The notes: generated by a model not told the origin, from the letters alone. A stretch of DNA of 64,000 bases from Blasia pusilla (GCA_050084515.1 CM114271.1:40238001-40302000), one strand, 5' to 3'. Counted from the stretch's first letter, positions 3,001 through 64,000 are shown. Numbers and translations are program-made.

Positions 3001-3136
3001 TCCAAGGGTGTCTCTCCCGATCACTCTCGATGTGTCGATCTCCTTAGGTCTCGCCCCCAGCCACTGCCTCAACGGTCTTGGTAGGCATGGGGCTCACCAA
3101 CACAAATGCTATGATCTGTCGCATCTTCAAACGATG

Positions 3137-13683: not shown

Positions 13684-14300
13684 AATTCCTTGCTCGTAGC
13701 CATATAGAGGCTCAGAGATTTCAGAACTATGATGTAGATACTAAAATATGGTGTAAAAGACCTATTGTATTCTAAGTGCAAGATATTTGCAACAATGCTC
13801 TTCACTGAAGTAACCCAAACCCTAGGCTCAACCCTAAGAGAAACTATAAGCAAAGCCGTGCAAGCTGCACAACATAAACGTGTCACTTACTAGGTGCTAA
13901 AGAAATAAGGAAGCTCAAGGAGGTGTAGATCTGAAGCGTCTTGCAAACCTCAAAAGTTGGCTAGAAAAAAGTGGCAGATAATGCAATGTGTTATTGAACA
14001 CACTAAGATCTAGCATCAACATGCATGAAACATCGTCACGGGTGGAAAAGTAACTCCAAGAGGCTATGGGTGGCAAAGTAACTCCAACGGGCTACGAGGG
14101 AGGCTCCATGAAGACTCTCGGAGACATCCTAAGGTCCCTTATCGTGGCTCAGATTCATGTATAGATTGGAGAGTTCGGACACCAGAGCGGCGGAGACTAA
14201 AACCTGCAGCGGAGAGTGAACGAGGAAGCGCACAAACATGAAGATTTGAGCATGTAAGATGAATATAGCAAACCGAGCAGAGGAATGGAGATTATGAACT

Positions 14301-14788
14301 TGTCACGTCTCTTAGGATAGATCGGTGAGATCTAGTAGAGCGCCTTCATGAGTAGCGGAGGACAAGCTTGGTAGGTCAAGAATGACCTGCTGAGGCCCCG
14401 AGAAACGTGAGAGAGCAGGCTTCCCCCTCGTTTCGGCTCATTTGGAGCCATATTGAGGAACTTACTATTTTAGATAAGTACCATTTTGAGTATGTGATCG
14501 ACTTTATATTTTTGGTAAGTGTCCCTTGACCTCCTACATGAGGTCAAGAGCCAAGGAGGTGACTTGGGAGCATAGGTAACCATGGAGAGAGCTTGGGAGA
14601 GGGGAGGGATATACCTCAAGGAGAGAGAGCTCGAGAGCTCATTCTTTCTTTGTTGAACCTCTTGGCATGAGGCGGCGGAGCTATGGTCTTGAGCTAGAGA
14701 GTGGGTTTGGTTTGACATTGAGAGAGACATGTGAGAGTGCACATATGTGAGAACTATGGTGTTGTGAGAGAGATTGGATCTTATTTTA
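14301..14788 (+). repeat. Terminal repeat A1 of copy 2
   Basis: TGTCACGTCTCTTAGGA...GATCTTATTTTA; direct repeat of 23654-24187. Confidence 0.92.
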
Positions 14789-16099
14789 CAAACAAAGAAT
14801 GAGTGAGTGAGAGAGCTTCACGAGGGAGCTTGCTGGTCACTCGCTCGTTTTGCACGTTGGGGATTGTATTCCCCGTTCAGCGGTTCATGGGAGTGCTCAC
14901 CGGAGCAAGAGCCGCTTAGTTGTGATGTTTCCTTTGCCGATTTTTCGTGTGGAAAAGTGGTGCGCGGAAGCGCTGACCAATTTTTGATAGGGATTGAGTA
15001 TGGGGGCGGATTGCCCCATGCCGGTGCTCTGAGAGCACCATGTAGCTTGCTGATTTGTGTTCTCACATGTTGTACATTTTCGTTGGGAGAAATCAACACG
15101 GAAGCGCTGCCGAATTATGTGTAGGAGAGAGAGACATTTTGTTTTATGACAATCCCCACATGTTTTTACTTGGATGTTCGATTCCAAATATTTTTTGATG
15201 CTCTCGTAGATCGTGAAGCTTTGCACGCTTTGGAATAAACGGTGCAATTTGGAGTTGCAAGAAACAAGTTATGATCAATCTTGCAAAAGTGCCATTGCTA
15301 GGTGATTTTTAGGGTTAAATCGTTCAAACCCTTACCCAGCCGCCACGGCGGCGGCGGCCGTCGCCGTGAGAGTCAGCATCAAAAATCCGCCGTCAATGGT
15401 CATTGGTCAACCGTCAAAATCAACGGTCAACCGTCACTGTCAACGATCCACCGTCGGCTGTTGATGTCGCCTAGCGCTCCACTGAGCCGCATTCGGCCGT
15501 TGTCCACCCTTTTGTTGTTATTGCCGCCATTACGGAGTGGAGGGTCTTCCATGACCATCATTGATTCTGCAACTTGCGCCGCATATGCTGCCGAGTGCCG
15601 TGCTGTTTGTAGCGGTTCCGTTCCGCCAGTGCCGCACCGGATCGTTGGACCTGCACCTCACATCGAGGAGGTTTGAGCAACGTCAGTACGAGAGGAGTAC
15701 GACTTGCTGATTGGAGGAGTTGTCTTCATGATCGAGTTGGGGTCGAGATTTGCAGTTGCCGAGGAGCGATATCGATATTATTGTCAGGTTACCCATTATG
15801 GTCTCTGACCTTGCACGTGTGAGGGATTTCCGGATATTGGGAAGTTATTTGGGATATTAGGTTTCGTGCTGATGCTAGTAGCATCGATGATGTATGGGTT
15901 TAGGGGACATAGATCTGTGTGGGATGTCCAGAGTTGAGGATGGTTTGTCGATGAGACAATAGATTGATTGATTTTCCGCACCACGCTGCTTGTTGCCACA
16001 CAACACACGTCTCAGTGAGAGAGTGGAGATTGAGTTCCGCATGTTTAGTTTGAGTGATTGAGGGATTACTCGCGAGATTGAGAGTGATAATGTGAGAGG

Positions 16100-17580
16100 G
16101 GCACGAGGGCCATCACCGCGTCCTTTCAGGATTTTGAGAGGCGAGGTAGTGGATTTGAGAGTAGCTCTGGAGGGTTTACCCGGAGTGGTGCGAGGTTTCG
16201 AGGGTCTCCACGTGAGAGACCACCTCGATCTCCTTCTGTGTTATCTTCAGACGAGGGGGAGCATATAGAGGAGTGTGTTAGTGATCCACCGTACACATTG
16301 AGTGGTCCTACCAGTTGGGCATACGAGATGGAAGACCGGGGTAGAGGATTGCGTAGGTTTTTGGGTGCTGTAGGCACTATAGATCTACACGACTTTATTG
16401 CGGAGTTTAGGAGTTGGTGTGACTCACAGCGGGCCAGGAACTCTAGAGAGTTCGACCCATTTACAGCATGGAACGGTATGTTCCAACATTTAGAGGGGCC
16501 TCCCATGGACGATTACCATGAGTTCTCCCATAGATATGCCCAGGAGATTGAGGCATGGCGACTCTACTACGACCCACACTAAGTGTCATGGACGGAGCCA
16601 TTCCCAGATGAGGAGGAGGAGTCAAGAGAGGCTACTTCCTCTTCCACTAGTGATGTTTTAGGAGGGGTCACTCGCACTAGAGCAGTTGCATCATCTAGTC
16701 GGGTTCGTCCCAGGTTCAACCACGTGGTTGAGTTCTTCGCTGAGTTGAGGGCAAGCTACCAAGGGCTACGGACGGAGAAGTTGCGGAGCATCCATGACTT
16801 CCAGAGGCGCATGGGTGAGAGTTTGCGTGAGCCTTACACTCGCTTGCACCGGTTGATCAACGTCACTCAGGGGATGACAGAGGCTCAGGAAATCCAATCA
16901 TGGTACGTGATGTTGGACCGGACCCTGCAGACACGGTATGAACACGTTGAGAGATGTTTTTAGGATTGCCGAGAACGTTGACCGCAACATGGCGGAGGAG
17001 AGCGTAGCCACCACGGGTTCTCGGCGAGAGCAGTCACGATTGTGTGCACCACCTGTGCAACAACGTGGACTCCGAGATAGGTTGACTGTGGCACCACGAG
17101 CTCAGGGAGGATACCGGGAGGCCGTGCCACAAAGACCTGCGCCTTTATATGCGGCTCAGCAGCAGCCACCTATTCTTACTTGTTGGTCATGTGGTGAAGC
17201 CCATGATCAGCGCGATTGCACTCGTCAGGGTCACGGACGTGTGCCTCAACATGGAGGAGGAGATGGCGCTGCACCAGGAGGTTATAAGTGTGTCTATTGT
17301 TAGAGGTATGGTCATACACGCGCCAAGTGTTTAAGTTTACATCCTGAGTTATGTTCGGACCGAGGGCTAGAGAGGGCACCAAAGCGAGTAGCCGGTCCGG
17401 GTGGAGCTAGAGATCGTGCATCAGGTGGTCCCTTTGGGGGACGAGGAGCTCGAGTTGCCCGACAGGGTGGTGGAGCTGGCCGTGGAGGAGGTAGAGTACC
17501 ACCACCTAGACGCGCTGAGGGAAACACTGGACGTGAGGCTGGGATGGCTGCTCAGATATAGCAACTACAAGAGCAGATTG
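16100..17580 (+). pseudogene. gag (capsid-like domain plus two zinc knuckles); start approximate
   Basis: FQRRMGESLREPYTRL retrotransposon-gag motif; CWSCGEAHDQRDC and CVYC*RYGHTRAKC knuckles. Confidence 0.85.
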
Positions 17581-18239
17581 CCACTATGGCATTGAGGTTA
17601 CCCGATGCCGGATCCGTGGCATCGATATCATATGGAGCAGCCAGAGATATGGAGGATCTTGGTTGGATGGGTAGGGTTGCCCAGATGGAGGCCGCCGTAG
17701 TTGTGATGCGTGGAGCAGCCGTAGAGTTGGATCCACAGCGAGGGCAAGCCAGAAAAGAGACAAGGCTTCCTCAGTCTTTCACATTGTCCAAAGCGTTGAG
17801 GACCCCATCGATGGGTCGTCATCAAAGTTCATGGAGAGTTGGTGATGTTGTTGGTGTGCAGGCATAGAGGGCGATGGGAGAAGCAAGTGCGACGACTCCT
17901 ATTGTTGATGCTCAGGAGGGGCATATGTCGAGCACATTGTTGGGGGCAGCCACCGTTGTGTATCGCACTTCTTTATTTTCTACTCTCGATGTTATGACGT
18001 TGGGGGGTACGCCGGCCGAGGCTTTTCAGTTGGCCGCTTCACTATGTGAGCGCGGAGTTGGAGTTCCTGCATCACGTTGAGAGGTGATTGCAGAGGAGGT
18101 GATGGACCTGCCTTTGGAGCGGATGCTCGGGCCTTCCATGTCAGATTCATGGCAAGCTGCGACTACTAGGATGGCGAAGAAGCCCGCTAGACCCGCGATA
18201 GAGCGTGCCATGGCTTCTCCTGGTGTTGTATTGCTGGAT

Positions 18240-18626
18240 AAGCGAGGAGAGGTCTTCCAGTTAGTGAGTCCCGAAGGTAGAGCTTTTAGTCCGCAATGCA
18301 TCTTGTTGGATTCAGGAGCGCAACCCCTGATGTTGGGGAAAGAATCATTCAGACGATTGGGCTTGACGAGAGCCGATGTGGAGCCTTGTCCATTCCGGAT
18401 ACAGACATCCTTGGGTGGAGCGAGTACCACACAATATATCCCCCGACAGGAGGCCATGGTGAGGATTCGCCGGGGACATCCTACAAATGAGTCCATGGTG
18501 CGAGCCAAGGCGATAGTGACTGATGCAGAGTCCTATAACGTCTTGGTTGGTGGAGTTGTGTTATACCCGATGGGGTTTTCCCTGGATTACTCAGAGGAGT
18601 CAGCGTCCTACAGACCAGGACGGTAG
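18240..18626 (+). pseudogene. Retropepsin-like aspartic protease
   Basis: ILLDSGAQPLMLG catalytic motif and downstream YNVLVG. Confidence 0.88.
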
Positions 18627-19019
18627 TAAGGTGATGGGAGCCTTAGCTCATTACCCGTTCGATTCACAGGTGCAATGATCGAGCGACGGCTAAGAGAGGT
18701 GGCGACCTTAGCAGCATTTAGCAGTGCCATCACTTGGCCTAGTGGTTTGATTGAGGGACATGTCCATGCAGAGGATACTCCCGTTCCTGAAATTTCTATG
18801 GAGAGGAGTGTTATGGTAGGCGCATCATTTCGTGGAGGAGAGGTGTCGTTGTGGGGCTCGACTGAGGAGCTTCAACGATTGGCAGATGAGCACGTGCAGA
18901 GCGGGTGGAGCGAGGCGTTTGCACCGGAGCATGACGGGTCTAAGGAACCCGAGGTAGCAGGGAGTACTAGGATGACACCCTTGGATACCACACCCATTGT
19001 GTGGTGTATCTCGGAGGAG

Positions 19020-19975
19020 GGTATTTGAGTGTTAGATCTCTTTGGAGGGATTAGCACCGAGTTAGCTGATGTTTTGCAGGCAGGGGTGCGAGTGCAACAG
19101 TACATGTATGTGGAGATTGATGATGTTGCAAGGCATGCTTCACTTCACCATGTGGCACTGTTACGCCTCCGTTTTCCAGACTTGTTGTCTATGTCCACCA
19201 TTCAGGGTCACCAGAGTTCCCTACTGAGGGACATTTCATTGTTGGGGGCATATGACTTGGAGCGGGTAGGGACCATAGACCTAGTCATTGCTAGTTGGCC
19301 GTGTTAGGGCCAATCGAGTGCTGGACGAGATAGCGGGTTAACTGACACTCGAGCCAGGTTGTTTTGGGAGATGATGTGGATCTTGCGACATTTACAAGAG
19401 CATCAATCTCGTTCTCTAGCATACATTTTGGAGAATGTGCCAATTTTGGGCGATTCAAGGTCCCGCGTGGTGATGAGTGTACATCAGGTGCATGCATGGT
19501 TTAGCTCAGCAGTGTTGTTAAATGCGGCGAGTGTTGGTTCACGAGCACATCGCCCGCGTCTTTGGTGGACCAACTTGGTACCACACGAGGTGTTACCGAG
19601 GGCATATGCGAGAATGGAGCATCCCTCCAATTTGTTGGTGGATTCTATATTGGATCCGGGTCGTCGATCACAAGCAGTGAGGCACGATGATCGACCGTTG
19701 TTGATTGTGGTGAACAGGATTGGCAGGCCACAGGCAGCCTTTCCCATATTGGTGAGTTTTCCCGCTTCATATGCATTCAAGGAGGCCGGAGGTGGCTTGG
19801 TTTGGGATGACCAAGTACAGAGGTTGGTGGAGCCCAACCCCGATAAGCGAGAGCGAGCGATGGGATTCCCCATAGGAGTGACTACAATACCGTCACTATC
19901 AGAGGCATTGCGACGTCATGTCTTGGGTTAGGCGATGGATCTGAACTTCTTGACATGGATTTTCAACTTAGGAGT
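19020..19975 (+). pseudogene. C5 DNA cytosine methyltransferase domain, DNMT3-like, inside pol
   Basis: Motif I VLDLFGGI, II YVEID, IV DLVIASWPC*G, VI ILENV, VIII AHRPRLWWTNL, IX RERAMGFP, X RRHVLG*AMD. Same reading frame as protease and RT. Confidence 0.93.
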
Positions 19976-20279
19976 AGCTGAGTAGCGTTTTTTGAGGATG
20001 CGACAGATCACCGCTGTTGCGTTGGTGAGCCCCATGCCTACCGAGACGGTTAAGGCAACGGCTGGGGGCGAGATCCGAGGAGATCAACACACCAGGGGTG
20101 ATCGGAAGAGACACCCTTGGACTTCTTGGGATGTTTTGCAGGTACACGAGGAGATGATAGGCACAACATCAAGTGTGGTTTCAGATACTACATGTGGAGA
20201 TGAGAGTTCTATTGTCTGAGACGGAGTTGCACCATAGCAACCACCGACACCTGCGCCAGAGAGTCCTACCGTAGTCACG

Positions 20280-21733
20280 ATGGAGACTTGGGAGCCAGAT
20301 ATGGGCCCTAAGTTGACAGGAGGAGAGCGGCGCCAGATACACCAATTCCTTAGGAGTTATAGGAGGTGTTTTGCATTTAGTATGCATGATTTGGGTACGC
20401 TGAAGGGTCCAGGGATCCGCATTGAGTGGTCGAGTGACACGCTGATCTTCCGACAACCCTACAGGTGCAGTGACATGGAGAGGGCTCTGATTCAGAGTAG
20501 GAGCCAGGACTTGGTTGGAGCAGGACTAGTCGAGATGTTGCATGGAGAGTATGCATCTGCCACTATCATGCCCGCCAAGAAGGATGTGCATGGAAACTGG
20601 ACGGATAGGCGAAAGTGTGGAGATTACCGACTTATCAATCGGCAGACGAAGTCCGATAGGTATGCCATGCCCACCCTTGAGGAGATCTTTCATGCAATTG
20701 GGCATGCAAAGGTCTTTAGTTCATTGGATTTACGATCCGGATACCATGAGTTGCCTATCAGATTGGAGGACAGGCAAAAGACGGCATTTTGGGGTATCGA
20801 TCCTCACGGGAAGGATTGTTTGTACCAGTGGCGGTTCTTACCATTCGGGTTAAAGAACGCCCCCGACTGAGTTTGAGAGGGTCATGGATAGGATCTTGGC
20901 AGGTCTAGAATTTGCTAGGTGTTATATTGATGCAATCGTAGTCTTTAGCGCCACGGTTGAGGAGCATGAGCGACATCTAGAGGAGATGTTTCGACGATTG
21001 CAGTTACATGGGCTGAAGCTACATCCAGGCAAATGCAAGTTCTTCTACGACCAGATTGAGTACTTGGGTCATACAATATACCCTGGGGGCCTTGGTGTGC
21101 AACAGACGAAGGTAGGGGCTATTTCACGCAATCCACGCCCTACAGATGTGAGCCGCGTTCGTGCATTCATCGGATTGGCCAACTACTATCGGCGGTACGT
21201 CAAGGGGTTCAGTTCGATTGCAAAGCCACTGACCTTGCTGACCAAGGTGGATCATGAGTGGCACGGGGGATGAGCAAGAGCGAGCATTTCAGCTGCTCAA
21301 GGACAGATTGACGTCCGCGCCTATCTTGAGGAGACCGATCAAGGGGCGTCCTTTCTAGTTGCACACAGATTGGAGCATGTTGGGGCTTGGAGCTGTGCTC
21401 ACCCAACATGATGATGAGGGTAGAGAGTTTATGGTGGCTTACGCTAGACGTTCGAACAACATTGCAGAGGCAAAGTACAACTTGTATGAGGGTGAGTGCT
21501 TGGCTGCAGTCTGGGCTGTCGCACATTTCACGTGTTACTTATTCGGCAACCCCTTTACCATCATCACTCATCATCAACCACTACAGTGGTTGATGATGTC
21601 CAACAAGCTTACAGGGAAGCTTGCGAGATGGGCTCTATTGCTGCAGGAGTACGATTTTCAGGTGGTACATAGACCTGGGACGCTCAACCAGGATGCAGAT
21701 GGGCTGAGTCATAACCCATGCCCGAGTCAGTGA
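20280..21733 (+). pseudogene. Reverse transcriptase and RNase H
   Basis: DYRLIN, LDLRSGY, LPFGLKNAP, YIDAIVVF, YLGH, HTDWS, EGECLAAVWAV, DADGLS. Confidence 0.96.
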
Positions 21734-22024
21734 GATGCGACTGGAGCTCGATGGCATGGAGAGAGTGATGAGGAGTCAGTGCCAGGATGGCACGCGTCAG
21801 CCTTTTTAGGCTTGTTGTCTATGGAGAGCCAGAGTGTGGAGACTTTGATAGCGAGGTCCTTGGATCTTGAGGCCAGTGAGCAGACGACATGTGGCCGAGA
21901 TATTCATGATGATGGAGTAGTCTTGGAGTATGTGCGTACTGGCAACGTTGCGAGCATAGTGGATTCTAGAGAGCGGGATTGGATCCTACAGCGGGCCAGA
22001 CGGTTCCGCTAGGAGGGGAGGCAT

Positions 22025-23190
22025 GTGTTGCGAGTGTGGGAGGATGGTAGAGTGCGTGTAGTGCCTCATCCTTCGCAGAGAGCTCGTTTGGTGCATCATC
22101 CCCACGAGGAGTTGGGTCATTTTGGAGTGAAGCGGACATATAGCTTGCTCCAGATTCAGTATTGGTGGCGAGGCATGCAAACTGACGTTCAGCAGTTTGT
22201 TGCCAGATGCATGGTGTGTGATCGAGTCCGAGCATCGTTCTATGCTCCAACTTTCTAGTTGCATCCACTTCTGATCATGGGTTTAGGTTATAGATGGAGT
22301 TTGGATTTTTTTGAACCTTTGCCTTTGACGGAGCGCCATAATCGTTATGTGTTGGTGATGGTCGAGAACTTCTTGAAGTGGATAGAGTTGGTTGCATTGC
22401 CTGAAAAAGTGAGTGAGGGAGTAGCGTATGCCTTCCTAGATCGAGTGCTGAGTCATTACGGTGCACCAGCTGAGGTGTTGATAGACCACGGTACAGAGTT
22501 CCGCGGGGAGTTTTAGGCCTTGTGCGATCAGGCACTGATCGACCACCGCACTACTTCATGAGATCATCCTAAGGCGGATGGACTAGCGGAGCAGGTTGTG
22601 CACACGGTGAAGAGAGGACTATGCAAGTATGGCTTGTAGAGAGGTCACCTAGGAGATTGGGACCTTCAGTTGCCGTGCTTTGTGATGGGATACAGATTCA
22701 GCAAGCAAGCATCCTTAGCGTCTTTCTCACCGTACTTGTTGCTTTATGGCCGTGAGCCCGATTTACCTGCGGCCGTTCGTCGAGATACTGGTGAGGTGTT
22801 GAACCTTGATGACCCTGATGTAGGGATGCAAGCATGTTGTGAGAGGGCTGAGTTGTTTTGGAGAGTGATGCCCATGGCGTTTGAGAACTTGGCGATTGCG
22901 CAACATCGGGATACGTTGAGGTATGCAACTATTCGGGGAGGTGGTTATCGACCTACTATTCGGAGGTTTCATCAGGGAGACTATATCTACTTGCAGCAGA
23001 CGACACCCACGACATTGGATGTGACTGCAGGGCGCACCATCTTGACAGTGCGTGAGGTTTTGCCATCCGGTGTTCTCTTATTGGAGGGACAAGATGGTAT
23101 GGTTTGGAAGGGCCATGTGCGTAATTGTGCGCCATGTCATCTTCCGAACATTGACGATACAGTTGATCCGAGCTTAGCAATAGTTTCTGC
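22025..23190 (+). pseudogene. DDE integrase (HHCC zinc finger, core, C-terminal domain)
   Basis: HPHEELGHFG...CMVC, WSLDF, IDHGTEF, DGLAEQVV, FSPYLLLYGREP. Confidence 0.93.
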
Positions 23191-23199
23191 AAGCTTGCA

Positions 23200-23341
23200 G
23201 TGTATGTTGTGTGGTTCTGCCCGTGGTGCATCCACTATGCTAGTCTATGATGGGTGTTCGAGAGGATGGCATATGGCATGTTTGACGCCACCTCTTACTA
23301 GGGTTCCTCAGGGACGATGGATGTGTCACGGATGTATATAG
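23200..23341 (+). pseudogene. PHD finger fused to integrase C-terminus
   Basis: CMLC...MLVYDGCSRGWHMACLTPPLTRVPQGRWMCHGC: a C4HC3 pattern with one Cys changed to Tyr (TGT>TAT). Confidence 0.9.
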
Positions 23342-23508
23342 AGTTGGTAGTTCTACATTCTAACTTGTGTCTCTGACATGGATGACAAGAAGGCGACTAG
23401 CGATGGGGCCACATGAGCACCCGGCCTTCTTGCTCTTAGCGTCCGAGAGATGTATGTCATGGTAGGTAGGGTTAGATGGCTATCTGGAGTTAGAGGGACC
23501 TAACCACC

Positions 23509-23522
23509 AAGTAGGGGGGCGA
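23509..23522 (+). promoter_or_regulatory. Polypurine-tract-like sequence before B1
   Basis: AAGTAGGGGGGCGA; the equivalent in copy 3 is AGGGAGGAGA (58747-58756, minus). Confidence 0.55.
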
Positions 23523-24314
23523 TTGGATATATTTTGGTACTTCTTGTCTCGTTGTTTGGATGCCATGAGTTAGCATGTGATTGTGTGTGTTTGTGTGTGT
23601 GTGTTCGGTGACATCGATGTATGTTGTGTAGCGATATGTATGCGCACGACAACTGTCATGTCTCTTAGGAGACGTGACAACTCTACTAGATCGGTGAGAT
23701 CTAGTAGAGCGCCTTCGTGAGTAGCGGAGGACAAGCTCAGTAGGTCGGGGATGACTTGTTGGGGCCCAGGGAAACCTCAGAGAGCAGGCTTCCCCTTCGT
23801 TTCGGCTCATTTGGAGCCATATTGAGGAACTTACTATTTTAGGTAAGTACCATTTTGAGTATGTGATTGACTTTATATTTTTGGTAAGTGGCCCTTGACC
23901 TCCTACATGAGATCAAGAGCCAAGGAGGTGACTTGGGAGCATAGGTTACCATGGAGAGAGCTTGGGAGAGGGGAGGGGTACACCTCAAGGAGAGAGAGCT
24001 TGAGAGCTCATTCTTTCTTTGTTGAGCCTCTTGGCATGAGGCGACGGTGCTATGGTCTTGCTTGCCTTGTGTGTGTAACCCAAGCGTCTCGTTAGGAGAG
24101 TGGGTTTGGTTTGACATTGAGAGAGATATGTGAGAGTGCACACATGTGAGAACTATGGTGTTGTGAGAGAGATTGAATCTTATTTTATTGGAGATATTTT
24201 GGTACTTCTTGTCTCGTTGTTTGGATGCCATGAGTTAGCATGGGATCGTGCGTGTTTGTGTGTGTGTTCGGTGACAACGATGTATGTTGTGTAGCGATGT
24301 GTATGCGCACGAAA
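23523..24314 (+). repeat. 3' composite terminal repeat B1-A2-B2 of copy 2
   Basis: B (TTGGAnATATTTTGGTACTTC...GCGCACGA(C/A)A, ~130 bp) occurs twice, flanking a second copy of A. Confidence 0.92.
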
Positions 24315-25705
24315 AACTCCGGAGCGGCGGAGACTTCAAAGACTTCAAACACGACAACACGGGGGTCCCCGAGTGTGGAGCTTCAAAGTTTGAGCGCTGC
24401 ACGGGAATGACGACCAGTTGGAGTCCCTAAGTGTGGAGCTTGAGTGCAATCGAGACTCGAGAATACAAGGAGACTCACAAACGAGCGTGTCAGTCAGGAC
24501 TGGACCAGAGCAAGCGAGTCGTGAGTCTGGACTGTACGAGAGCAACGCGAGAGTCAACCAACTCAGGCCTAGATGAGAGCAACAACAGCTCAGAAGCGTG
24601 CGCAATAGTCAAGAGACGGGAAGGACGAGAGCAGCAACAGGGCGCACAAGAGTCGGGAGACGGGACTAGACGAAAGCCAAGGAGCAGGGAGGTATGCAAT
24701 GCCAACCCCTCCGATCCCGCCGGAATGTCCCCCTCGGGCGTGATGCTGTCAGCTCCTCACCTCCACGGTCCTACCAATGCCCACACGGATACCCCTTAGC
24801 CGCCTCACCCGACCTGGTGGCTTGCCCTACGATGGAGGGCTTAGATTAAATTAATCATGACACTAACAATGACTAACCCTCCCACTCTTCCAGTTTTCCA
24901 GCAACCGGTAGGTGATGCGGCAGTAAACCGGAATGAGTGGTATGGCCGACAGCCAAAAACCAATTCCGTCACATATTCCTCAGGACTCAGCAGAAAACCG
25001 TCCAATCCCTTCCCGGCCAGCAGGTTTCCGGGCACTCTCCGGCCCCTGTCGGAATTGCAACCGGCATTTTCGAACGCAGCCCGGAATTTTCTAATTTTTC
25101 CCGGTTAGGTGAACACGTAACCCCGGTTCTGCCCGTTCATCGCCCCCATCCGAGTTTGTCGGCGCCCCCTATTTTAGAAGAGGTTGGGGGGGGTATCTAA
25201 AGAGTTTAGCGGGCTCGTCGGCATCCGAGTTTGTCGGCGCCCTGTTCTAGCGGCAGTTTGCGGGTGGCGCTATTGTAGTGCGGAGGAGGCAGCGCTTTCA
25301 GCTGCATCGTCGTCGTCGTCCATTCTGAAGGAGAGTGAGTGAGTGGAGGAGCGATCGATCGCACTTTCTCCGAAGAAAAGTTGCGCAGTTTCGCGGATTG
25401 TGACGACGCTGAGAGAGCGACGGACGATTGTGTTGCGCTGAAGGAAAAGGGGAGTAATTGAGCGGACGCGGATCTGAGGATCCGAGAAGGCGACGCAATC
25501 GGAGGACGGAGTGTGAAGCGGAGGGCGGATTGCTTCGTTTTTTCGGAGGGCGAATCGGGGGCGCTTTGCGTGGGGAGTGGGGAAGTGGGGGAGGGAAGCA
25601 GAAAGGAGATAGGTTGGGGAGCGGCGGAGAGCGTTTTAGTTGTTCTTTGACTAAGGAGGAGTCGGGGGCGTTCTTCGCAGTAGGAGACAGATCAATCTGG
25701 GCACG

Positions 25706-58015: not shown

Positions 58016-61000
58016 TGCGCATACACATCGTTGTCATCGAACACACACAATCCCATGCTAACTCATGGCATCCATACACAGAGGCGAGAAGTACCAAACT
58101 ATCTCCAATTAAAATAAGATCAAATCTCTCTCACAACATTATAGTTCTCACATGTGTGCACTCTCACATGTGTATCTCAATGTCAAACCAAACCCACTCT
58201 CCTAATGAGAGGTTTGGGTTACACACACAAGGCAAGCAAGACCATAGCTCCGCCGCCTCATGCCAAGAGGTTCAACAAAGAGAGAATGAGCTCTCAAGCT
58301 CTCTCTCTTGGAGGTATACCCCCTTCCCTCTCCCAAGCCCTCTCAACGATAACCTATGCTCGCAGGTCACCTCCTTGGCTCTTGACCTGTTGTAGCGGGT
58401 CAAAGGCCACTTCCCAAAGTATAAAGTCAACTATCCCCAATATGGAAAATTACCCTAAATAGTAAGTTTCTCTATATGGCTCCAAATGAGCCGAAACGAA
58501 GGGGAAACCTGCTCTCTCAAGTTTTTCGGGGCCTCAACAGGTCATCCCCGACCTCTTGGGCATTTCCTCCACTACTCGTGTAGACGCTCTGCTAGATCCC
58601 ATTGATCTATCTTAACAATCATGATAGTTTTCGTGCGCATACACATCGCTACATCGTTGTCATCGAACACACAAACAAACACACACGATCCCATGCTAAC
58701 TCATGGCATCCATACAATGAGGCGAGAAGTACCAAAATATCTCCAATCTCCTCCCTAGCTGGTAGTTAGGTCCCTCTAACTCCAGATAGCCATCTATCCC
58801 TACCTACCACGACATACATCTCTAGGACGCTAAGAGCAGAAAAGTCACGTGCTTATCTGGCCCCATCGTTAGTCGCCTTTCTGTCATCCATATCACGAGA
58901 AAAAGTTAGAATCAAAACCTACCTAATATCTCCTCTATGTACATCTGGGACACATCCATCATCCCCGAGGAACCCTAGTGAGAGCCCTGTATGAGGAACC
59001 CTCTGTAGTTCTCCTCGTGTATCCGCAATACAATTTCTGCAGGTTTGCGTTGTATTGCATTCTGCATTGTATCCGGCGCAACAGTAGTTTCTGCACGCTT
59101 GTAGAAACTACTATACCATCAATTTTAGGAAGGTGACATGGCGCACAATTACGCATGTAGTCCTTCCATACCATACCATCTTGTCCCTCCAGCAAGAGAA
59201 CACTAGATGGCAAAACGTCACGCACTGTCAAAATAGTGCGCCCAACAGTCACATCCAACGTCGTCGGTGTCGTCTGCTGCAAGTTCACATAATCTCCCTG
59301 ATGAAACCTCCGGATAGTTGGTCGATAACCACCACCCTGAATACTTGCATTTCTCAACGTATCCCGATGTTGCGCAATCGCCAAGTTCTCGAACGCCATG
59401 GGCATCACTCTCTGAAACAACTCAGCCCTCTGAGAACATGCTCGCATCCATACATCTAGGTCATCAAAGTCCAGCACTTCACCAGCATCTCGACGAATAG
59501 CCGCGGTAAATCTTGCTCTCGGCCATAAAGTAGCAAGTATGGTGAAAAAGACGCTAAGGATGTCTGCCTGCCTGTTGAATCTATATCCCATCGCCAACCA
59601 CGGAAACTGGAGGTCCCAATCTCCTAGGTGACCTCTCTACAAGCCATACTTGCGTAAATCCCTCTTCACCATATGCACAACTCTCTCTGCTAATCCATCT
59701 GCCTTGGGATGATCTCGCAAAGTCGTGCGGTGGTCAATCAAGCGCCTGATCACACAAGGCCTCGAACTCATCGTGAAACTTCATACCTTGGTCTGTCACC
59801 ACCTCAGCCGGTATGCCATAATGACTTAGCACTTTGTCAAGGAAGGCATAAGCTACTCCCTCACTTGCTTTGTCAAGCAATGCAACCAACTCGATCCAAT
59901 AGAAGTTCGCCAATCCCATGAATGTGCGAACACGACTCACATCTGTAGGGCGTGGAATACGTGAGATAGCTTCTACCTTCGTCAGCTTAACACCAAGGCC
60001 CCCTGGGTATAACGTATGACCCAAGTACTCAATCTGGTCGTAGAAGAACTTGCACTTGCATGGATGTAGCTTCAGCCCATGTAATTGCAATCCTCAAAAC
60101 ACCTCCTCTAGATGTCGCTCATGCTCCTCAACCGTGGCGCTAAAGACTATGATGTCATCAATATAACACCTAGAAAAATCCAGACCAGCCAAGATCCTAT
60201 CCATGACCCCTTGAAACTCAGCCGGGGCATTCTTTAACCCAAATGATAAGAACTGCCACTAGCACAAAAAATCCTTCATGTGAGGATCGATGCCCCAAAA
60301 TGTCGTCTTCTGCCTGTCCACCAATCTGATAGGTAGCTGATGGTATCTGGCTCGCACATCCAATGAAATGAAGACCTTAGCATGATCAATCGCATGAAAG
60401 ATCTCCTCACGGGTGGGCATGGCATACCTATCGGACTTTTTCTGCATCAGGTATAACATTGCTTCACCAACCAAGACGTTGTAGGACTCTGCATCAGTCA
60501 CTATCGCCTTGGCTCGCACCACGGACTCATATGTAGGATGTCCCGGGAGAATCCCCACCACAACCTCCTATTGTGTGATATACTGTGTGGTACTCGCTCC
60601 ACCCAAGGATGTCCATATCCGGAATGGATAACGCTCCACATCGGCTCTTGTCAAACCCAATCCTCTGAATGACGCTTTCCCCAAATTAGGGGTTGCGCAT
60701 CTGAATCCAACAAGACGCGCTCCGGACTAAAAGCTCTACCTCCAAGACTCACCAACTGGAAGACCTCTCCTTGGTTATCAAGCAACACAACACGAGGAGA
60801 AGCCATGACACGCTCTATCGCGGGTCTAGCAGGCATCTCCGCCATGCTAGCAGCCACAACCTGCAATGAATCTCATGTGGACGGCCCAAGCATCCGCTCC
60901 AAGGGCAGGTCCATCACCTCCTCTGCAATCACCTCAGAACGTGATGCAGGAACTCCAACTCTGAGCTCACATAATGAAGCGGTCAGCCAGAAAACCTCGG

Positions 61001-64000
61001 CGGGCGTACCTCCCAAGATCATAACATCAGAAGCAGAAAATAAAGGAGCACGGTACACAACGGTGGTCGCCCCCAACAACGTGCTTGACACATGGCCCTC
61101 ATGACCATCAGCAATAGGAGTCATCGCAGTTGCTTCTCCCATCGCCCTCCGTGCCTACACACCAACAACATCACCAACTCTCCAGGAACTCTAATCACGA
61201 TCCATCGATGGGATCCTCATCGCTTTGGACAACATGAAAGACTGAGGAATCCTAGTCTATTTCCTCGCTTTACCTCGCTGTGGATCCAACTTTGCGGCAA
61301 CTCCACGCGTCACAACTACGGCGGCCTCCATCTGGACAACCCCGCACATCCAACCAGGATCCTCCATATCTGTGGCTACTCCATATGATGTCGATGCCAC
61401 GGATCCGGCATCGGGTAACCTCAATGCCATAGCGACAATCTGCTCTTGTAGCTGCTGTATCTGAGCAACCATCCTAGCCTCATGTCCGGCGTCTCCCTCG
61501 ACGCATCTAGGTGGTGGTACTCTACCTCCTCCACGGGCAGCTCCACCACCCTGTTGGGCAACTCCAGCTCCTCGTCCCCCAACGGGACCACCTGGTGCAC
61601 GATCTCTAGGCCCACCCGGACCGGCTCCTTGCTCTGGTGCCCTCTCTGGCCCTCGGTCTGAACGTAACTCAAGATGTAAATTGAAACACCTGGCACGTGT
61701 ATGACCATACCTCTAACAATAGTCAGACTGATAACCTCTTGGTGCAGCACCATCTCCTCCTCTATGCTCGGGCACACGTCGATGACCCAGATGAGTGCAA
61801 TCGCGCTGATGATGGGCTCCACCACATGACCAACAAGTAATAGTAGGCGGCTGCTGCTGAGCCGCATATGAAGGGGCTGGTCTCTGTGGCAGGGCCTCCT
61901 GGTATCCTCCCTGAGCTCGTGCTGCCACAGTCGACCTATCTCGGAGTCCACGTTGTTGTATAGGTGGTGCAACCAATCGTGATTGCTCTCACCCAGAACC
62001 CATGAAGGCTACACTCTCCTCCGCCATGTTGCGCTCAATGTTCTCGGCGGTCCTAAAAACATCTCTCAATGTAGGGAAGGTGTTCATAAGAAGCACCCCC
62101 TCCCGCACGCGTGTCCGCAAGGTCCGGTCTAGCATCGCGTACTATGACTGGATAGCGTGAGCCCCCGTCATCCCCTGAGTGACATTGATAAACCGGCGCA
62201 AGCGAGTGTAAGCCTCACGCAAACTCTCACCTGGGCGCCTCTGGAAGTCGTGGATGCTTCGCAACTTCTCCATCCGTACCCCTTGGTAGCTCGCCCTCAA
62301 CTCAGCAAAGAACTCAACCACAGGGTTGAACCTGGGACGAACCCGACTAGATGATGCAACTGCTCTAGTGCGAGTGACCCCTCCTAAAAAATCACTAGTG
62401 GAAGAGGAAGAAGCCTCTCCTGACTCCTCCTCCTAATCTGGGAATGGCTCCGTCCATGACACATAGAGTGGGTCATATTTGAGTCGCCATGCCTCAATCT
62501 CTTGGGCATATCTATGGGAGAACTCATGGTAATCGTCCATAGGCGCCCCCTCTAAATGTTGGAACATACCGTTCCATGCTGTAAATGGGTTGAACTTTCT
62601 AGAGTTCTTAGCCCGCTGGGAGTCGCACCAACTCCTAAAATTTGCTATGAAATCGTGCAACTCAATCGTGCCTACTCCACCTCAAAACCTACGCGATCCT
62701 CTACCCCGATCGTCCATCTCGTACACCCAATTGGTAGGACCACTCACAATGTATGGTGATGTGCTCACAAACTCCTCTACACCCTCCCCCTCGTCTGACG
62801 ATGACACAGAAGGAGGTCGAGGTGGTCCCTCACGTGGAGACCCTCGGAACCTCGTGGCACTCTCGGGTTCACCACCTCGCCTCTCAAAGTCCCAAACGGA
62901 CGTCATGATGACCCTCGTGCTCCTCTCACCCGATCACTCTCAACCTCGCAAGTATCCCTCAATCACTCATTCCAAACATGCGGCACTCGATCTACACTCT
63001 CCCTCCGCGAGACGTGTAACGTGCGGCAACACGCGGCGTGGTGCGGCAAATCGACCAGGCTATCATCTCATCGACAAACTACCCTCAACTCCGGACATCC
63101 CACACAAGTCTATGTCCCCTAAACCACATATATGAATGATGCTCTCACCATCCACACAACCAAATATCCCCAAATAAACTACCCAAATCCCAAAATCCCT
63201 CACATGTGCAAGGTAAAGGACCAGAATGGGTAATTTGAACACATGTCGATGTCGCTCCTCAGCAAGTGCAAATCTTGACCCCAACTTGGTCGTGAAGACA
63301 ACTCCTCCAATCAGCAAGTTGTACTCCTCTCGTACTGACATTGCTCAACCTCCTTGATGTGCGGTGGAGGTTGAGCGGTCCGGTGCGACACTGGCGGAAC
63401 ATAACGGCTACAAACATCATGGCACTCGGGAAGAATGGGATGCGGCACTCGGCGGCATACCCTCCTCAATCAACAATTCACACGCTCTGCTCCTTAGTGA
63501 AGGAGCGGTTCCGCGATCGAGACGGTACGGTGCGGCCACAAGCAGCATGGCGCAGCAATCGGTGGTGTATTGCGGCTACGGGCATCATGACACGGTACTC
63601 GATCGTCGTCGAGCGGCTACCAATCACAACATAGCAACATGAAATCAAAACTCAAACACCATAACCGGAGGTCATCTGCCATCACTGGTTGATGACGAAA
63701 CTACGATGATAATGGCGGCCAAAACAAAATACATGGTGGTGACGCAAGTCAGAGAATCAACGAACGTCGTGAAAGACCTTCCACTCCGTGATGGCGGCAA
63801 TGGCAACCAAAGGGTGGAGAACGGACGGTGGACCGTTAATGGTGATGGCTGACCATTGATGGTGATGGCCAACCAATGATAGTGGCGGTGATGGTTGACC
63901 GTTGATGGTGACTATGACGGCGACGGCCGCGGCCAACGTGGCGGCTCGTTTAGGGTTTGAAGAATTTAACCCTAAAAAATTTCCTACCAATGGTAGTTTT
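58016..64000 (-). mobile_element. Gypsy-like retrotransposon, copy 3; internally deleted, 5' end beyond right edge
   Basis: gag, protease, partial RT and partial integrase, colinear with copy 2. 3' repeats are B1 58629-58746, A2 58110-58626, B2 58016-58108. Confidence 0.92.

What the first reader, a model, noticed from the sequence alone, without database searches (positions are those of the whole stretch)
17586..20870. Gypsy retrotransposon polyprotein carrying a DNMT3-like cytosine methyltransferase between protease and RT
Seen: ORF pieces starting at 17586, 17874, 18084, 18675, 19029, 19359, 19992 and 20280 share one frame and are separated only by point stops, giving PR-linker-DNMT-linker-RT. 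Motifs I, II, IV (catalytic PC), VI (ENV), VIII, IX and X are in unpermuted order, unlike plant DRM. Motifs VIII-X (AHRPRLWWTNL, ERAMGFP, RRHVLG) resemble DNMT3. Copy 1 retains the C-terminal half at the same position, so this is a family trait rather than a one-off capture. Known, from memory: DNMT-encoding retrotransposons were reported in dinoflagellates and a charophyte alga (de Mendoza et al. 2018); I know of no characterised land-plant family. Inference: the protease would release the methylase into the particle, where it could methylate the element's own cDNA or insertion site.
Basis: partly seen in the sequence, partly recalled or inferred. Interest (0 to 1): 0.92.

Follow-up and report, generated by a model that had tools for sequence, protein, structure and literature searches.

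The report
Liverwort retrotransposon carrying a DNMT3-like methylase
This is a decayed copy of an abundant, transcribed liverwort jumping gene that encodes its own DNMT3-type DNA methylase, a kind of element described so far only in a green alga, and its relatives in the model plant Marchantia would make its unknown function testable.

Summary
Window 14301-24316 (+) is a roughly 10-kb Ty3/gypsy-type element. One frame reads gag(CCHC), protease, a C5-methyltransferase domain (19029-20000) and reverse transcriptase. RNase H, integrase and a C-terminal PHD finger follow.

- **The methylase is DNMT3-type.** PF00145 scores 37 bits against a cut-off of 22. DNMT3A is the best solved relative by sequence (9e-22) and by fold (pLDDT 95.6, Foldseek 2e-18). 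The motifs are in unpermuted order.
- **This copy is dead.** It has stop codons, three frame changes and YIDD mutated to YIDA.
- **The domain is a family trait.** The same arrangement occurs in Marchantia polymorpha, Calypogeia fissa and Sphagnum fallax gene models, in one intact 2300-aa ORF, and in 80 metagenome loci. dN/dS falls to 0.13-0.18 between deep lineages.
- **The host is a liverwort**, judged from a NUP133 gene in the window.

- One "point stop" (TAG 20235) is native and conserved. Its context, UAG-CAA-CCA, fits the TMV-type leaky-stop signal, so the methylase belongs to a Gag-PR-DNMT product.
- The repeats are A-coding-B-A-B, as published for KnitGypsy-Dnmt3 of Klebsormidium.
- The family has roughly 1000 copies and is transcribed in sense.
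- A second, commoner architecture (RNaseH-DNMT-integrase) exists elsewhere.

Verdict: a new land-plant member of a known kind. What the methylase does is unproven.

The parts
14301..14788 (+). 5' long terminal repeat (repeat A1), starting TGTCAC
   Evidence: BLAST against 23687-24187: 374 nt at 93.3% plus 92 nt at 96.7%. The start was fixed by comparing copies A, B and C and the sequence itself.
16343..17561 (+). gag region with a CCHC zinc knuckle (17289-17330, broken by a stop); frame change near 16940
   Evidence: tblastn of Marchantia P0005 residues 9-209 and 221 onward; CCHC motif found.
18165..18626 (+). aspartic protease (LLDSGA at 18303-18320)
   Evidence: Aligns with the protease of P0049, which Pfam scores as gag-asp_proteas; conserved block in alignment A1.
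18630..19028 (+). linker between protease and methylase, conserved in relatives (LLEGN...DTPV, TTPI blocks)
   Evidence: Alignment A1.
19029..20000 (+). DNMT3-like C5 cytosine methyltransferase domain, motifs I-IV-VI-VIII-IX-X in order. Three stops inside it: TAG at 19305 (Q of the PCQ motif), TAG at 19929 (Q of motif X; copy B has CAG) and TAG at 19983.
   Evidence: PF00145 at 37 bits. PDB sequence search: DNMT3A 2.7e-9 with the single sequence and 9e-22 with the profile. AlphaFold model pLDDT 95.6. Foldseek top 50 all DNMT3A/B/C. Stops compared between copies.
20235..20243 (+). native in-frame stop with its context: TAG CAA CCA, a candidate leaky (readthrough) stop between DNMT and RT
   Evidence: Shared by copies A and B. 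Relatives: 21 loci carry a stop (18 TAG, 3 TAA) followed by CAA-C[CT]C at the same place; L004 has TAG CAA CCA and L054/L055 TAG CAA CTA. Marchantia and Calypogeia ORFs end at the aligned place. UAG_CAR_YYA consensus read in PMC3542737.
20280..21270 (+). reverse transcriptase; one extra base near 20860 shifts the frame; catalytic YIDD reads YIDA (20923-20934)
   Evidence: RVT_1 found in two frames; tblastn frames; 564 of 1291 DNA reads lack one base at 20860.
21266..22033 (+). RNase H domain; frame change near 21266
   Evidence: RT_RNaseH 106.7 bits and RT_RNaseH_2 95 bits. RNA reads carry two extra bases at 21264/21266 in 42 of 74 and 40 of 70 reads of run X17.
22070..22567 (+). integrase: H2C2 zinc domain and DDE core (rve)
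   Evidence: Integrase_H2C2 57.1 bits, rve 36.3 bits.
23201..23335 (+). PHD finger at the C-terminal end of the integrase ORF
   Evidence: PF00628 at 29 bits, cut-off 24. The same domain sits at the same place in P0049, L069 and P0032.
23522..23653 (+). repeat B1, directly upstream of the 3' LTR
   Evidence: 93.75% identical to 24187-24312.
23654..24186 (+). 3' long terminal repeat (repeat A2)
24187..24316 (+). repeat B2, directly downstream of the 3' LTR; end of the element
   Evidence: Flanks of copies A and C diverge after it. DNA depth falls from about 1000 to under 1 after bin 24175-24641.
It lacks the part matching 18876-19490 and keeps the C-terminal half of the methylase (about 3122-3631).
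   Evidence: Self-BLAST, three-way alignment, tblastn.
58040..63823 (-). copy C, an internally deleted copy. It lacks the parts matching 18572-20641 (linker, DNMT, stop, RT N-terminus) and 21192-22379, and has B1-A2-B2 at its 3' end.

Best explanation
Window 14301-24316 is a dead copy of a liverwort Ty3/gypsy-type LTR retrotransposon of the 'Gypsy-DNMT3' kind.

**Coding plan of the family, shown by comparison.** ORF1 is Gag (CCHC), protease and a DNMT3-like C5 cytosine methyltransferase. It ends at a conserved UAG followed by CAA-CC(A/C) or CAA-CUA. In the same frame follow reverse transcriptase, RNase H, a DDE integrase and a PHD finger. The element is bounded by repeats arranged A-coding-B-A-B.

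**How it most likely works (inferred).**
- Most ribosomes stop at the UAG and make Gag-PR-DNMT. A minority read through and make the full fusion that brings RT and integrase into the particle. The methylase would then be made in Gag-like amounts (my odds for readthrough: about 0.6).
- The protease frees the methylase, which methylates the element's own new DNA copy during or soon after reverse transcription (about 0.35). This is the idea de Mendoza et al. proposed for such elements.
- The PHD finger on the integrase reads a histone tail and biases where the copy lands (about 0.3).

The methylase has been kept by purifying selection in the active lineage. This particular copy can no longer make it.
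For: **Identity of the domain.**
- PF00145 at 37 bits against a cut-off of 22.
- Family profile against PDB: DNMT3A 9e-22, DNMT3B 1.5e-19, DNMT3C 2e-19, tobacco DRM 2e-12, M.HaeIII 2.5e-9. No DNMT1 or chromomethylase chain was listed at the 0.001 cut-off.
- AlphaFold model pLDDT 95.6. The 50 best Foldseek matches are all DNMT3A/B/C, best E 2e-18, TM about 0.8 by target length.

**Element type.** RVT_1, RT_RNaseH, Integrase_H2C2, rve and PHD lie in that order downstream.

**Family trait.**
- 30 proteins at E<=1e-3 among 6675 candidates: 15 Marchantia polymorpha, 1 Calypogeia fissa, 1 Sphagnum fallax, 1 weak Tetraselmis hit and 12 unnamed.
- P0049 is one 2300-aa ORF reading PR-DNMT-RT-RNaseH-INT-PHD.
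- 81 of 356 candidate metagenome stretches encode a relative.

**Selection.** DNMT dN/dS is 0.73-0.94 between near-identical copies, 0.35-0.62 at dS about 0.15, and 0.13-0.18 between deep lineages.

**The stop.**
- TAG 20235 is shared by copies A and B.
- 21 loci have a stop 36 codons before the RT N-terminal motif (18 TAG, 3 TAA). In 14 it is in frame with methylase motif X, in 4 an indel has changed the frame, and in 3 motif X was not found.
- L004, separated from the other loci by dS of about 1.8, has TAG CAA CCA. It has no AUG between the stop and the RT start.
- Four gene models end at the aligned place.
- The context fits UAG_CAR_YYA (passages of PMC3542737).

**Repeats.** A1...B1-A2-B2 is present in copies A and C and in 4 of 18 long loci examined. 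This matches the 'A-coding region-B-A-B' layout and the KnitGypsy-Dnmt3 figure legend in PMC5890265.

**Abundance and expression.**
- Genomic depth is about 600-1600 on the element against about 0.4-1.3 in the right flank, at 90% likeness or more.
- Three RNA runs give sense-strand depth of 2-100 along the whole element, the methylase included.
- The library's strandedness was checked on the neighbouring spliced gene.

**Host.** The NUP133 ORF is 71% identical to Marchantia paleacea, 67% to Calypogeia fissa, 66% to Riccia sorocarpa, and 54% to the next hit, a lycophyte.
Against: - No enzymatic activity is shown for any Gypsy-DNMT3. The Klebsormidium domain gave no methylation in yeast; the authors call this inconclusive because human DNMT3B also failed (section 10 of PMC5890265).
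- The focal copy is dead, and I could not look for an intact copy in the host because no whole genome is held.
- Genomic depth over the methylase bins (19038-19971) is 155-243, against about 1050 in the bins beside it. At least three quarters of the copies that are 90% or more alike elsewhere therefore either lack this stretch or differ more there. Two of the three copies in the window lack all or part of it. The domain is thus not needed in cis by every copy that persists.
- Readthrough rests on sequence conservation alone. In the commonest moss-type lineage the context is CAA-CCC, which misses the last A of the consensus, and an AUG follows two codons after the stop, so restart of translation is possible there. 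Relative P0049 has no stop at all at this place.
- Protease cleavage sites, packaging and the substrate (DNA or RNA) are unknown.
- No Klebsormidium sequence and no host DNMT3 were in my tree. The link to KnitGypsy-Dnmt3 rests on the published description, and the origin of the domain is not rooted.
Confidence: 0.85

Rival explanations
1. The UAG between methylase and RT is a true terminator. RT-RNaseH-integrase is then made separately, by restart of translation at a nearby AUG or from another RNA, not by readthrough.
For: In the commonest metagenome lineage an ATG follows two codons after the stop (TAG CAA CCC ATG), and that context misses the last base of the CAR-YYA consensus. In the window an ATG lies 15 codons after the stop.
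Against: L004 has no ATG between the stop and the RT start, yet keeps TAG CAA CCA. The six bases after the stop stay CAA-CCA, CAA-CUA or CAA-CCC in three diverged lineages while the neighbouring codons differ. ORF2 is in frame with ORF1 wherever no later indel intervenes: 14 of the 18 loci in which motif X was found. RT and integrase made alone would lack Gag for packaging (general retroelement biology, recalled).
Confidence: 0.25
2. The methylase is a passenger that no longer does anything for the element, or is being lost in this host.
For: Depth over the methylase is 4-6 times lower than over neighbouring parts. Two of the three window copies lack all or part of it. The KnitGypsy domain showed no activity in yeast.
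Against: dN/dS is 0.13-0.18 between deep lineages. All catalytic motifs are kept across liverwort, moss and unnamed lineages. There are 466 cluster representatives at E<=1e-30. RNA depth over the methylase tracks DNA depth there.
Confidence: 0.12
3. The domain methylates RNA (the element's genomic RNA), not DNA.
For: de Mendoza et al. raise RNA methylation as a possibility for the LINE-borne DNMT (section 11 of PMC5890265). No DNA activity is shown for a Gypsy-DNMT3.
Against: The closest sequences and folds are the DNA enzymes DNMT3A/B/C at 9e-22. The RNA enzyme DNMT2 scores only 1.3e-6.
Confidence: 0.08
4. A one-off capture, nested insertion of a host DNMT3 gene, or an assembly chimera in this copy.
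For: Only one of the three copies in the window holds the complete domain.
Against: The same order and frame appear in 15 Marchantia models, in Calypogeia, Sphagnum, P0049 and the metagenome loci. Copy B keeps the C-terminal half at the same place. Genomic and RNA reads cover the junctions on both sides.
Confidence: 0.02

Closest known systems
KnitGypsy-Dnmt3 of the charophyte alga Klebsormidium nitens (de Mendoza et al. 2018, PMC5890265)
   Same: An intronless, unpermuted Dnmt3-type domain inside the polyprotein of a Gypsy-type element. Repeats are arranged as in DIRS elements (A-coding-B-A-B). The domain is under purifying selection (published Ka/Ks < 0.2; here 0.13-0.18 between deep lineages).
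   Different: The host is a land plant (liverwort), with relatives in Marchantia, Calypogeia and Sphagnum. Copy number is far higher, roughly 1000 against 'fewer copies' in K. nitens. The position of the domain in K. nitens is given only in a figure I could not see, so I cannot say whether PR-DNMT-RT and the leaky stop are shared. No K. nitens sequence was compared.
The RNaseH-DNMT-integrase-PHD elements found here in public data (P0032, L068/L069, a Scenedesmus 'pol')
   Same: Homologous methylase (37-43% identity), the same RT/RNaseH/integrase set and the same C-terminal PHD finger.
   Different: The methylase sits between RNase H and integrase, not between protease and RT. On the DNMT tree the two layouts fall on opposite sides of one branch: 1 change, and the window lies in a set of 32 rows with 99% support. 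This layout is the commoner one: 92 against 14 of 154 proteins, 48 not assignable.
SymbioDIRS-Dnmt3 of Symbiodinium dinoflagellates
   Same: A Dnmt3-type domain in a retroelement polyprotein; A-coding-B-A-B repeats; two domain orders coexist.
   Different: Those elements integrate with a tyrosine recombinase. This one has a DDE integrase (rve) with an H2C2 zinc domain.
Cellular DNMT3A/3B/3C (animals) and DNMT3 of bryophytes
   Same: Catalytic fold and motif order; best matches by sequence and structure.
   Different: About 20% identity. No PWWP or ADD domain was found in the element (Pfam). It is embedded in a retroelement polyprotein. Marchantia's own MpDNMT3b is a different gene, Mp5g09290.
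Chromoviruses (Ty3/gypsy elements with a chromodomain after the integrase)
   Same: A chromatin-reader module fused to the C-terminus of the integrase.
   Different: No chromodomain was found.
Type I leaky stop of tobamoviruses (UAG CAR YYA) and the gag-UAG-pol readthrough of murine leukaemia virus
   Same: An in-frame UAG before the polymerase. The six following bases in the window, L004 and L054 fit CAR-YYA.
   Different: The stop lies after protease and methylase, not after Gag. Readthrough is not shown. No downstream pseudoknot was looked for.

Membership tests
C5 cytosine DNA methyltransferase (Pfam PF00145) | Profile match above the curated cut-off | tested here: met
   37 bits against a cut-off of 22, E 3.5e-9. 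Relatives L004 49 bits and P0023 45.5 bits.
C5 cytosine DNA methyltransferase (Pfam PF00145) | Catalytic motifs I (FxGxG), IV (PC), VI (ENV), VIII, IX and X present and intact | tested here: inconclusive
   All are present and in order. In this copy the Q after PC and the Q of motif X are stop codons, so the copy cannot make the enzyme. Relatives have them intact.
DNMT3 subfamily | Closest to DNMT3 among solved methyltransferases, by sequence and by fold | tested here: met
   DNMT3A 9e-22 against DRM 2e-12, HaeIII 2.5e-9, DNMT2 1.3e-6; no DNMT1 or CMT chain listed at the 0.001 cut-off. The 50 best Foldseek matches are all DNMT3A/B/C.
DNMT3 subfamily | Unpermuted motif order (unlike DRM) | tested here: met
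   Collinear alignment to DNMT3A from motif I to motif X. DRM chains match only profile positions 2-128, at chain positions 230-350.
DNMT3 subfamily | Placement inside the DNMT3 clade in a rooted tree with DNMT1, DNMT5, DRM and bacterial enzymes | not tested
   No reference DNMT sequences could be brought into the tree. The tree holds retroelement domains only.
DNMT3 subfamily | Regulatory PWWP and ADD domains of animal DNMT3A/B | tested here: not met
   Pfam found none in any of the three frames. The only reader domain is a PHD finger after the integrase.
Ty3/gypsy LTR retrotransposon | Domain order protease, RT, RNase H, integrase, with a DDE integrase | tested here: met
Ty3/gypsy LTR retrotransposon | Two direct long terminal repeats | tested here: met
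   14301-14788 against 23654-24186, 93-97% identical. There is an extra repeat B before and after the 3' LTR.
Ty3/gypsy LTR retrotransposon | Target-site duplication, tRNA primer-binding site and polypurine tract | tested here: inconclusive
   Reading the ends gave at most a possible 4-base duplication. I saw no obvious primer-binding site after 14788 and no purine run before 23654. No tRNA set of the host was available.
Gypsy-DNMT3 (KnitGypsy-Dnmt3 kind) | Dnmt3-type domain inside the polyprotein of a Gypsy-type element, without introns | tested here: met
Gypsy-DNMT3 (KnitGypsy-Dnmt3 kind) | Repeats arranged as in DIRS elements (A-coding-B-A-B) | tested here: met
   Copies A and C, and loci L042, L043, L060 and L062. 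Published wording read.
Gypsy-DNMT3 (KnitGypsy-Dnmt3 kind) | Sequence kinship with the Klebsormidium copies and the same domain position | not testable with these tools
   No hit carried a Klebsormidium name. The figure and supplements of PMC5890265 are not held.
DIRS retrotransposons | Tyrosine recombinase in place of a DDE integrase | tested here: not met
   rve and Integrase_H2C2 were found; no tyrosine-recombinase (phage-integrase) family was listed.
Chromovirus | Chromodomain after the integrase | tested here: not met
   A PHD finger sits there instead.
Type I programmed stop-codon readthrough | UAG followed by CAR YYA | tested here: met
   Window TAG CAA CCA, L004 TAG CAA CCA, L054/L055 TAG CAA CTA. 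21 other loci have CAA-CCC or CAA-CTC, which misses the last base.
Type I programmed stop-codon readthrough | Measured readthrough product | not testable with these tools
   Needs a reporter assay, ribosome profiling or proteomics.

The most novel reading that the evidence does not exclude
Bryophyte Gypsy-DNMT3 elements form a distinct architectural branch of methylase-bearing retrotransposons. In this branch the DNMT3-like enzyme was moved to the Gag-protease side of a TMV-like leaky UAG, so it is made in structural-protein amounts and not in polymerase amounts. With about a thousand transcribed copies in a liverwort, and intact-looking gene models in Marchantia polymorpha, these elements would be a source of de novo cytosine methyltransferase outside the host's own DNMT3/DRM/CMT set. 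They would mark their own new DNA, and possibly nearby host DNA, while a PHD finger on the integrase chooses the chromatin they enter.
Probability: 0.2. Interest if true: 0.85.

Novelty: new member of a known kind. Interest (0 to 1): 0.6.

Why it matters
Cytosine methylation is the main way plants silence transposons, so a transposon that carries its own de novo methylase is a paradox. Its purpose has stayed open since 2018. The known hosts, a charophyte alga and dinoflagellates, are hard to manipulate, and the only test of a Gypsy-borne domain was inconclusive.

This family is present in land plants, abundant and transcribed in a liverwort, and represented by gene models in Marchantia polymorpha, which has transformation, CRISPR and good methylomes. 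That makes the question directly testable.

The conserved leaky-stop layout and the single switch between two domain orders also give concrete handles on how the enzyme is dosed and how such elements evolve. A practical point follows: DNMT3-like gene models in bryophyte annotations may be transposon genes and should not be counted as host methylation machinery.

Tried and rejected
- **Whole-genome search of the host:** no genome is held.
- **Indexed runs:** no RNA holder listed. The raw RNA runs were laid instead.
- **First structure prediction:** a shallow 15-row alignment gave pLDDT 55.1 and was discarded. A 58-row alignment gave 95.6.
- **First representative search:** it failed because the profile exceeded 1200 positions. 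I repeated it with a domain-only alignment.
- **Naming the organisms behind the unnamed relatives:** three cluster look-ups of 10 proteins each gave one organism name only, Scenedesmus sp. PABB004.
- **Protein atlas:** it gave only generic C5-methylase clusters.
- **Circular or tandem forms:** reads joining 24312 to 14300-14303 with CAAC between them could suggest these. They are equally explained by the internal B1-A2 junction of other copies, so I draw nothing from them.
- **Ends of the element:** target-site duplication, primer-binding site and polypurine tract were not resolved.
- **Copy C as a natural methylase-free form:** rejected. Its 2070-base gap also removes the RT N-terminus, and it has a second gap at 21192-22379.
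- **Other methylase identities (DRM, DNMT1, chromomethylase, DNMT2, bacterial):** rejected.
- **DIRS and chromovirus membership:** rejected.
- **Codons at the stop sites in other copies:** the 'other letters' table was cut after 40 of 1309 rows, so I could not see what they carry there.

Full report
**What is there.** Self-comparison of the window shows three copies of one repeat family.
- Copy A lies on the + strand at about 14301-24316.
- Copy B lies on the minus strand at 1-8475, about 85% identical, cut by the window start.
- Copy C lies on the minus strand at 58040-63823.

The frame reads 1095 codons with 11 stops, where about 51 would be expected at 3/64 per codon.

With X at the stops, Pfam finds PF00145 (37 bits, cut-off 22) and the start of RVT_1. 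The three forward frames of the whole element add the rest of RVT_1, RT_RNaseH, RT_RNaseH_2, Integrase_H2C2, rve and a PHD finger, in that order. CCHC knuckles and an LLDSGA protease lie upstream.

**The methylase is DNMT3-like.**
- The single sequence finds 41 distinct PDB sequences at E<=0.01. The 29 best are DNMT3A/B/C (best 2.7e-9), and bacterial M.HhaI follows at 2.8e-4.
- A profile of eight family members sharpens this: DNMT3A 9e-22, DNMT3B 1.5e-19, DNMT3C 2e-19, tobacco DRM 2e-12, Arabidopsis DRM2 3e-9, M.HaeIII 2.5e-9, DNMT2 1.3e-6. No DNMT1 or chromomethylase chain was listed at the 0.001 cut-off.
- The alignment to DNMT3A runs collinearly from motif I to motif X. DRM chains match only the first 128 profile positions at their C-terminal end, as expected for a permuted enzyme.
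- A first AlphaFold run with a shallow alignment was useless (pLDDT 55.1). With 58 rows the model reached pLDDT 95.6, and its 50 best Foldseek matches in the PDB are all DNMT3A/B/C catalytic domains (best E 2e-18, TM about 0.8 by target length).
- No PWWP or ADD domain is present.

**This copy is dead.**
- Inside the methylase, the glutamine after the catalytic Pro-Cys and the glutamine of motif X are TAG. Copy B has CAG at the second site. A further TAG at 19983 is shared with copy B.
- The frame changes near 16940, 20860 and 21266.
- The RT catalytic YIDD reads YIDA.
- Private changes in each of the three copies are about 70% transitions. C>T plus G>A outnumber A>G plus T>C 2- to 3.8-fold, the usual decay of methylated plant repeats.
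- The LTRs are 93-97% identical.

**It is a family trait, and the host is a liverwort.** A word-indexed search with the methylase region returned 30 proteins at E<=1e-3 among 6675 candidates:
- 15 from Marchantia polymorpha (56-62% identity; several also carry CCHC, RT or RNase H)
- 1 from Calypogeia fissa (62%)
- 1 from Sphagnum fallax (42%)
- 1 weak Tetraselmis hit
- 12 unnamed

The search among longer proteins gave one hit, P0032. A cluster member, P0049, is one open 2300-residue frame reading gag, protease, DNMT, RT, RNase H, integrase and PHD.

A scan of metagenome contigs matched 356 stretches. Of these, 81 encode a relative and 80 were kept as loci.

A full HMMER search of 1.84 billion representatives gave 13928 proteins at E<=0.001, 2424 at 1e-10 and 466 at 1e-30. 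The 150 best all score 245 bits or more, and many are polyproteins of 1000 to 3456 residues. Only one of the 20 looked up had an organism name, a 'pol' of the green alga Scenedesmus sp. PABB004.

A single-exon NUP133 ORF in the window (47500-49422, minus strand) is 71% identical to Marchantia paleacea, 67% to Calypogeia fissa and 66% to Riccia sorocarpa. The next hit, a lycophyte, is at 54%. The window therefore comes from a liverwort other than these three.

**Selection.** I took methylase domains from ten sequences that tblastn covers end to end in one frame. dN/dS is 0.73-0.94 between near-identical copies (dS about 0.05), 0.35-0.62 at dS about 0.15, and 0.13-0.18 between locus L004 and the rest (dS about 1.8). 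Against the window copy, synonymous sites are saturated (pS 0.75-0.79, pN 0.23-0.26). This is the pattern of a domain held by selection in the active lineage and decaying freely once a copy is dead.

- The TAG at 20235-20237 is shared by copies A and B. The TGA six codons earlier is CGA in B.
- The ORFs of four gene models (one Calypogeia, two Marchantia, one unnamed) end at the aligned place.
- In 21 metagenome loci a stop lies 36 codons before the conserved RT N-terminal motif (18 TAG, 3 TAA). In 14 it is in frame with methylase motif X 297 bases upstream, in 4 a later indel has changed the frame, and in 3 motif X was not found.
- The nearly intact locus L004 reads gag-protease, stop, DNMT, stop, RT, all in one frame.
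- The six bases after the stop are CAA CCA in the window and in L004, CAA CTA in L054/L055 and CAA CC[C] in the commonest lineage, while the codons on either side differ.
- UAG CAR YYA is the type I leaky-stop signal of tobamoviruses (passages of PMC3542737).

I therefore read the coding plan as ORF1 = Gag-protease-DNMT and, by readthrough, ORF1 fused to RT-RNaseH-integrase-PHD.

Points against this reading: the commonest lineage misses the last base of the consensus and has an AUG two codons on; P0049 has no stop at this place; and nothing has been measured.

**Repeats.**
- The LTR (A) is 14301-14788 and 23654-24186.
- A second repeat (B, about 130 bases) lies just before the 3' LTR (23522-23653) and again just after it (24187-24316).
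- Upstream of the 5' LTR, copies A and B have unrelated flanks. After B2, copies A and C diverge. So the element is A-coding-B-A-B.
- Copy C shows the same layout, and so do 4 of 18 long loci examined (L042, L043, L060, L062). Three more show only an LTR pair.
- This is the arrangement de Mendoza et al. describe as typical of DIRS elements. Their legend to Fig. 4c says the K. nitens Gypsy-Dnmt3 has it too. The integrase here is nevertheless a DDE enzyme, not a tyrosine recombinase.

**Abundance and transcription.** One genomic and three RNA runs of the same species label were laid on 12500-26500 at 90% likeness or more.
- Genomic depth, both lanes summed, is about 600-1600 on most of the element's coding part and its 3' repeats (lower over the methylase, below, and about 185 in bins 14835-15768). 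In the right flank bins it is 0.4-1.3. That gives roughly a thousand copy-equivalents, a rough figure because the flank rests on few reads.
- Most reads are 90-95% alike (55809 of 62386), so copy A is an older member.
- RNA depth is 2-100 along the whole element and lies almost wholly in the lane that marks + strand RNA. The neighbouring gene confirms this: its GT..AG introns (25737-25919 and 26012-26248) are read on the + strand in the same lane.
- The extra base near 20860 is absent from 564 of 1291 genomic reads.
- In run X17, 42 of 74 and 40 of 70 RNA reads carry two more bases at 21264/21266, against 19 of 453 and 7 of 600 genomic reads. The transcripts therefore come from a subset of copies that do not share copy A's frame changes.
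- Unexplained: depth over 19038-19971, almost exactly the methylase domain, is only 155-243 against about 1050 on either side, and RNA depth falls with it. Many copies must lack or differ in this stretch.

**Two architectures.** Domains were located with phmmer in 154 proteins: 149 hits plus five I added (P0005, P0021, P0023, P0032, P0049; P0023 is itself the 150th hit).
- 92 have the methylase after RNase H and/or before the integrase.
- 14 have it after the protease and/or before RT.
- 48 hold the methylase alone.

A maximum-likelihood tree was built from 146 methylase domains; rows with under 270 matched residues were left out. It puts the window copy in a set of 32 rows with 99% SH-aLRT support: 22 of the PR-DNMT-RT kind, 10 unassigned, and none of the other kind. 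The layout label needs a single change on the tree. The tree has no outgroup, so the direction of the change is open.

**Comparison with what is known.** For de Mendoza et al. 2018 I read sections 9, 10 and 11 in full and further passages. They describe Dnmt3 domains in the Pol polyprotein of a Gypsy element of Klebsormidium nitens, with DIRS-like repeats and Ka/Ks < 0.2. In yeast the domain gave no methylation, which they call inconclusive. They propose self-methylation of cDNA among other ideas.

Later papers speak of 'streptophytes (Gypsy-DNMT3)' and cite only that work (passages of PMC12344493, and of bioRxiv 10.64898/2026.05.21.726589).

Searches were run for Marchantia/DNMT3/retrotransposon, liverwort/LTR/DNMT, Gypsy-DNMT3, Marchantia/DNMT3/Gypsy, bryophyte/methyltransferase domain and MpDNMT3. 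None turned up text describing such an element in a land plant. The passages read in PMC11982613, PMC6453930, PMC9033089, PMC8616336 and bioRxiv 10.1101/2021.02.12.428880 held nothing on it. The last gives the host gene MpDNMT3b as Mp5g09290, which is not among the models found here.

Figures and supplements were not available. They may show the K. nitens domain order or list bryophyte sequences.

**Verdict.** The element is a land-plant member of a known kind. It adds features not in the text I could read: the leaky-stop layout, the PHD finger, the two architectures, and high copy number with transcription. The mechanism remains inference.

Noticed in passing
window 19038-19971: Genomic read depth (90% likeness or more) drops to 155-243 over almost exactly the methylase domain, against about 1050 in the bins on either side. 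RNA depth drops in step. Many family copies must lack this stretch or be much more diverged in it.
   Followed up: partly
window 20860 and 21264-21266: Transcribed copies differ from copy A at its frame changes. 42 of 74 RNA reads (run X17) carry an extra base at 21264, against 19 of 453 genomic reads, so the RNA comes from a minority subset of copies.
   Followed up: partly
P0032, L068, L069, P0211 and about 90 other proteins: A second and commoner layout has the homologous methylase between RNase H and integrase, again with a C-terminal PHD finger. One named example is a 'pol' of the green alga Scenedesmus sp. PABB004.
   Followed up: partly
P0275 and its cluster: Ten members of exactly 2487 residues lie on ten different contigs. 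This looks like a recently active methylase-bearing element in an unnamed organism.
   Followed up: no
P0049/P0025 and L069: In these lineages motif IV reads Glu-Cys (GWEC) where most members have the usual Pro-Cys.
   Followed up: no
window 47500-49422 (-), 37380-38372 (+), 52047-52634 (+): Host genes: a NUP133-like N-terminal exon of 641 codons, a PRP4-like ORF and a PRELI-family ORF.
   Followed up: partly
window 25576-26500 (+): A transcribed, spliced host gene lies directly downstream of the element, with introns 25737-25919 and 26012-26248 (GT..AG) and RNA depth about 7-16.
   Followed up: no
window 12967-13740 (-): An ORF with a C17orf113-type zinc finger (13081-13740) is transcribed from the minus strand. 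Its genomic depth is about 35 against under 1.3 in single-copy flank, so it belongs to another repeat family.
   Followed up: no
window 14363: RNA molecules of two runs begin at 14363 inside the 5' LTR, and RNA depth rises about five-fold from there. This may be the transcription start.
   Followed up: no
window 31589-31821 and 55526-55757: An inverted pair of about 235 bases at 76% identity, 24 kb apart.
   Followed up: no
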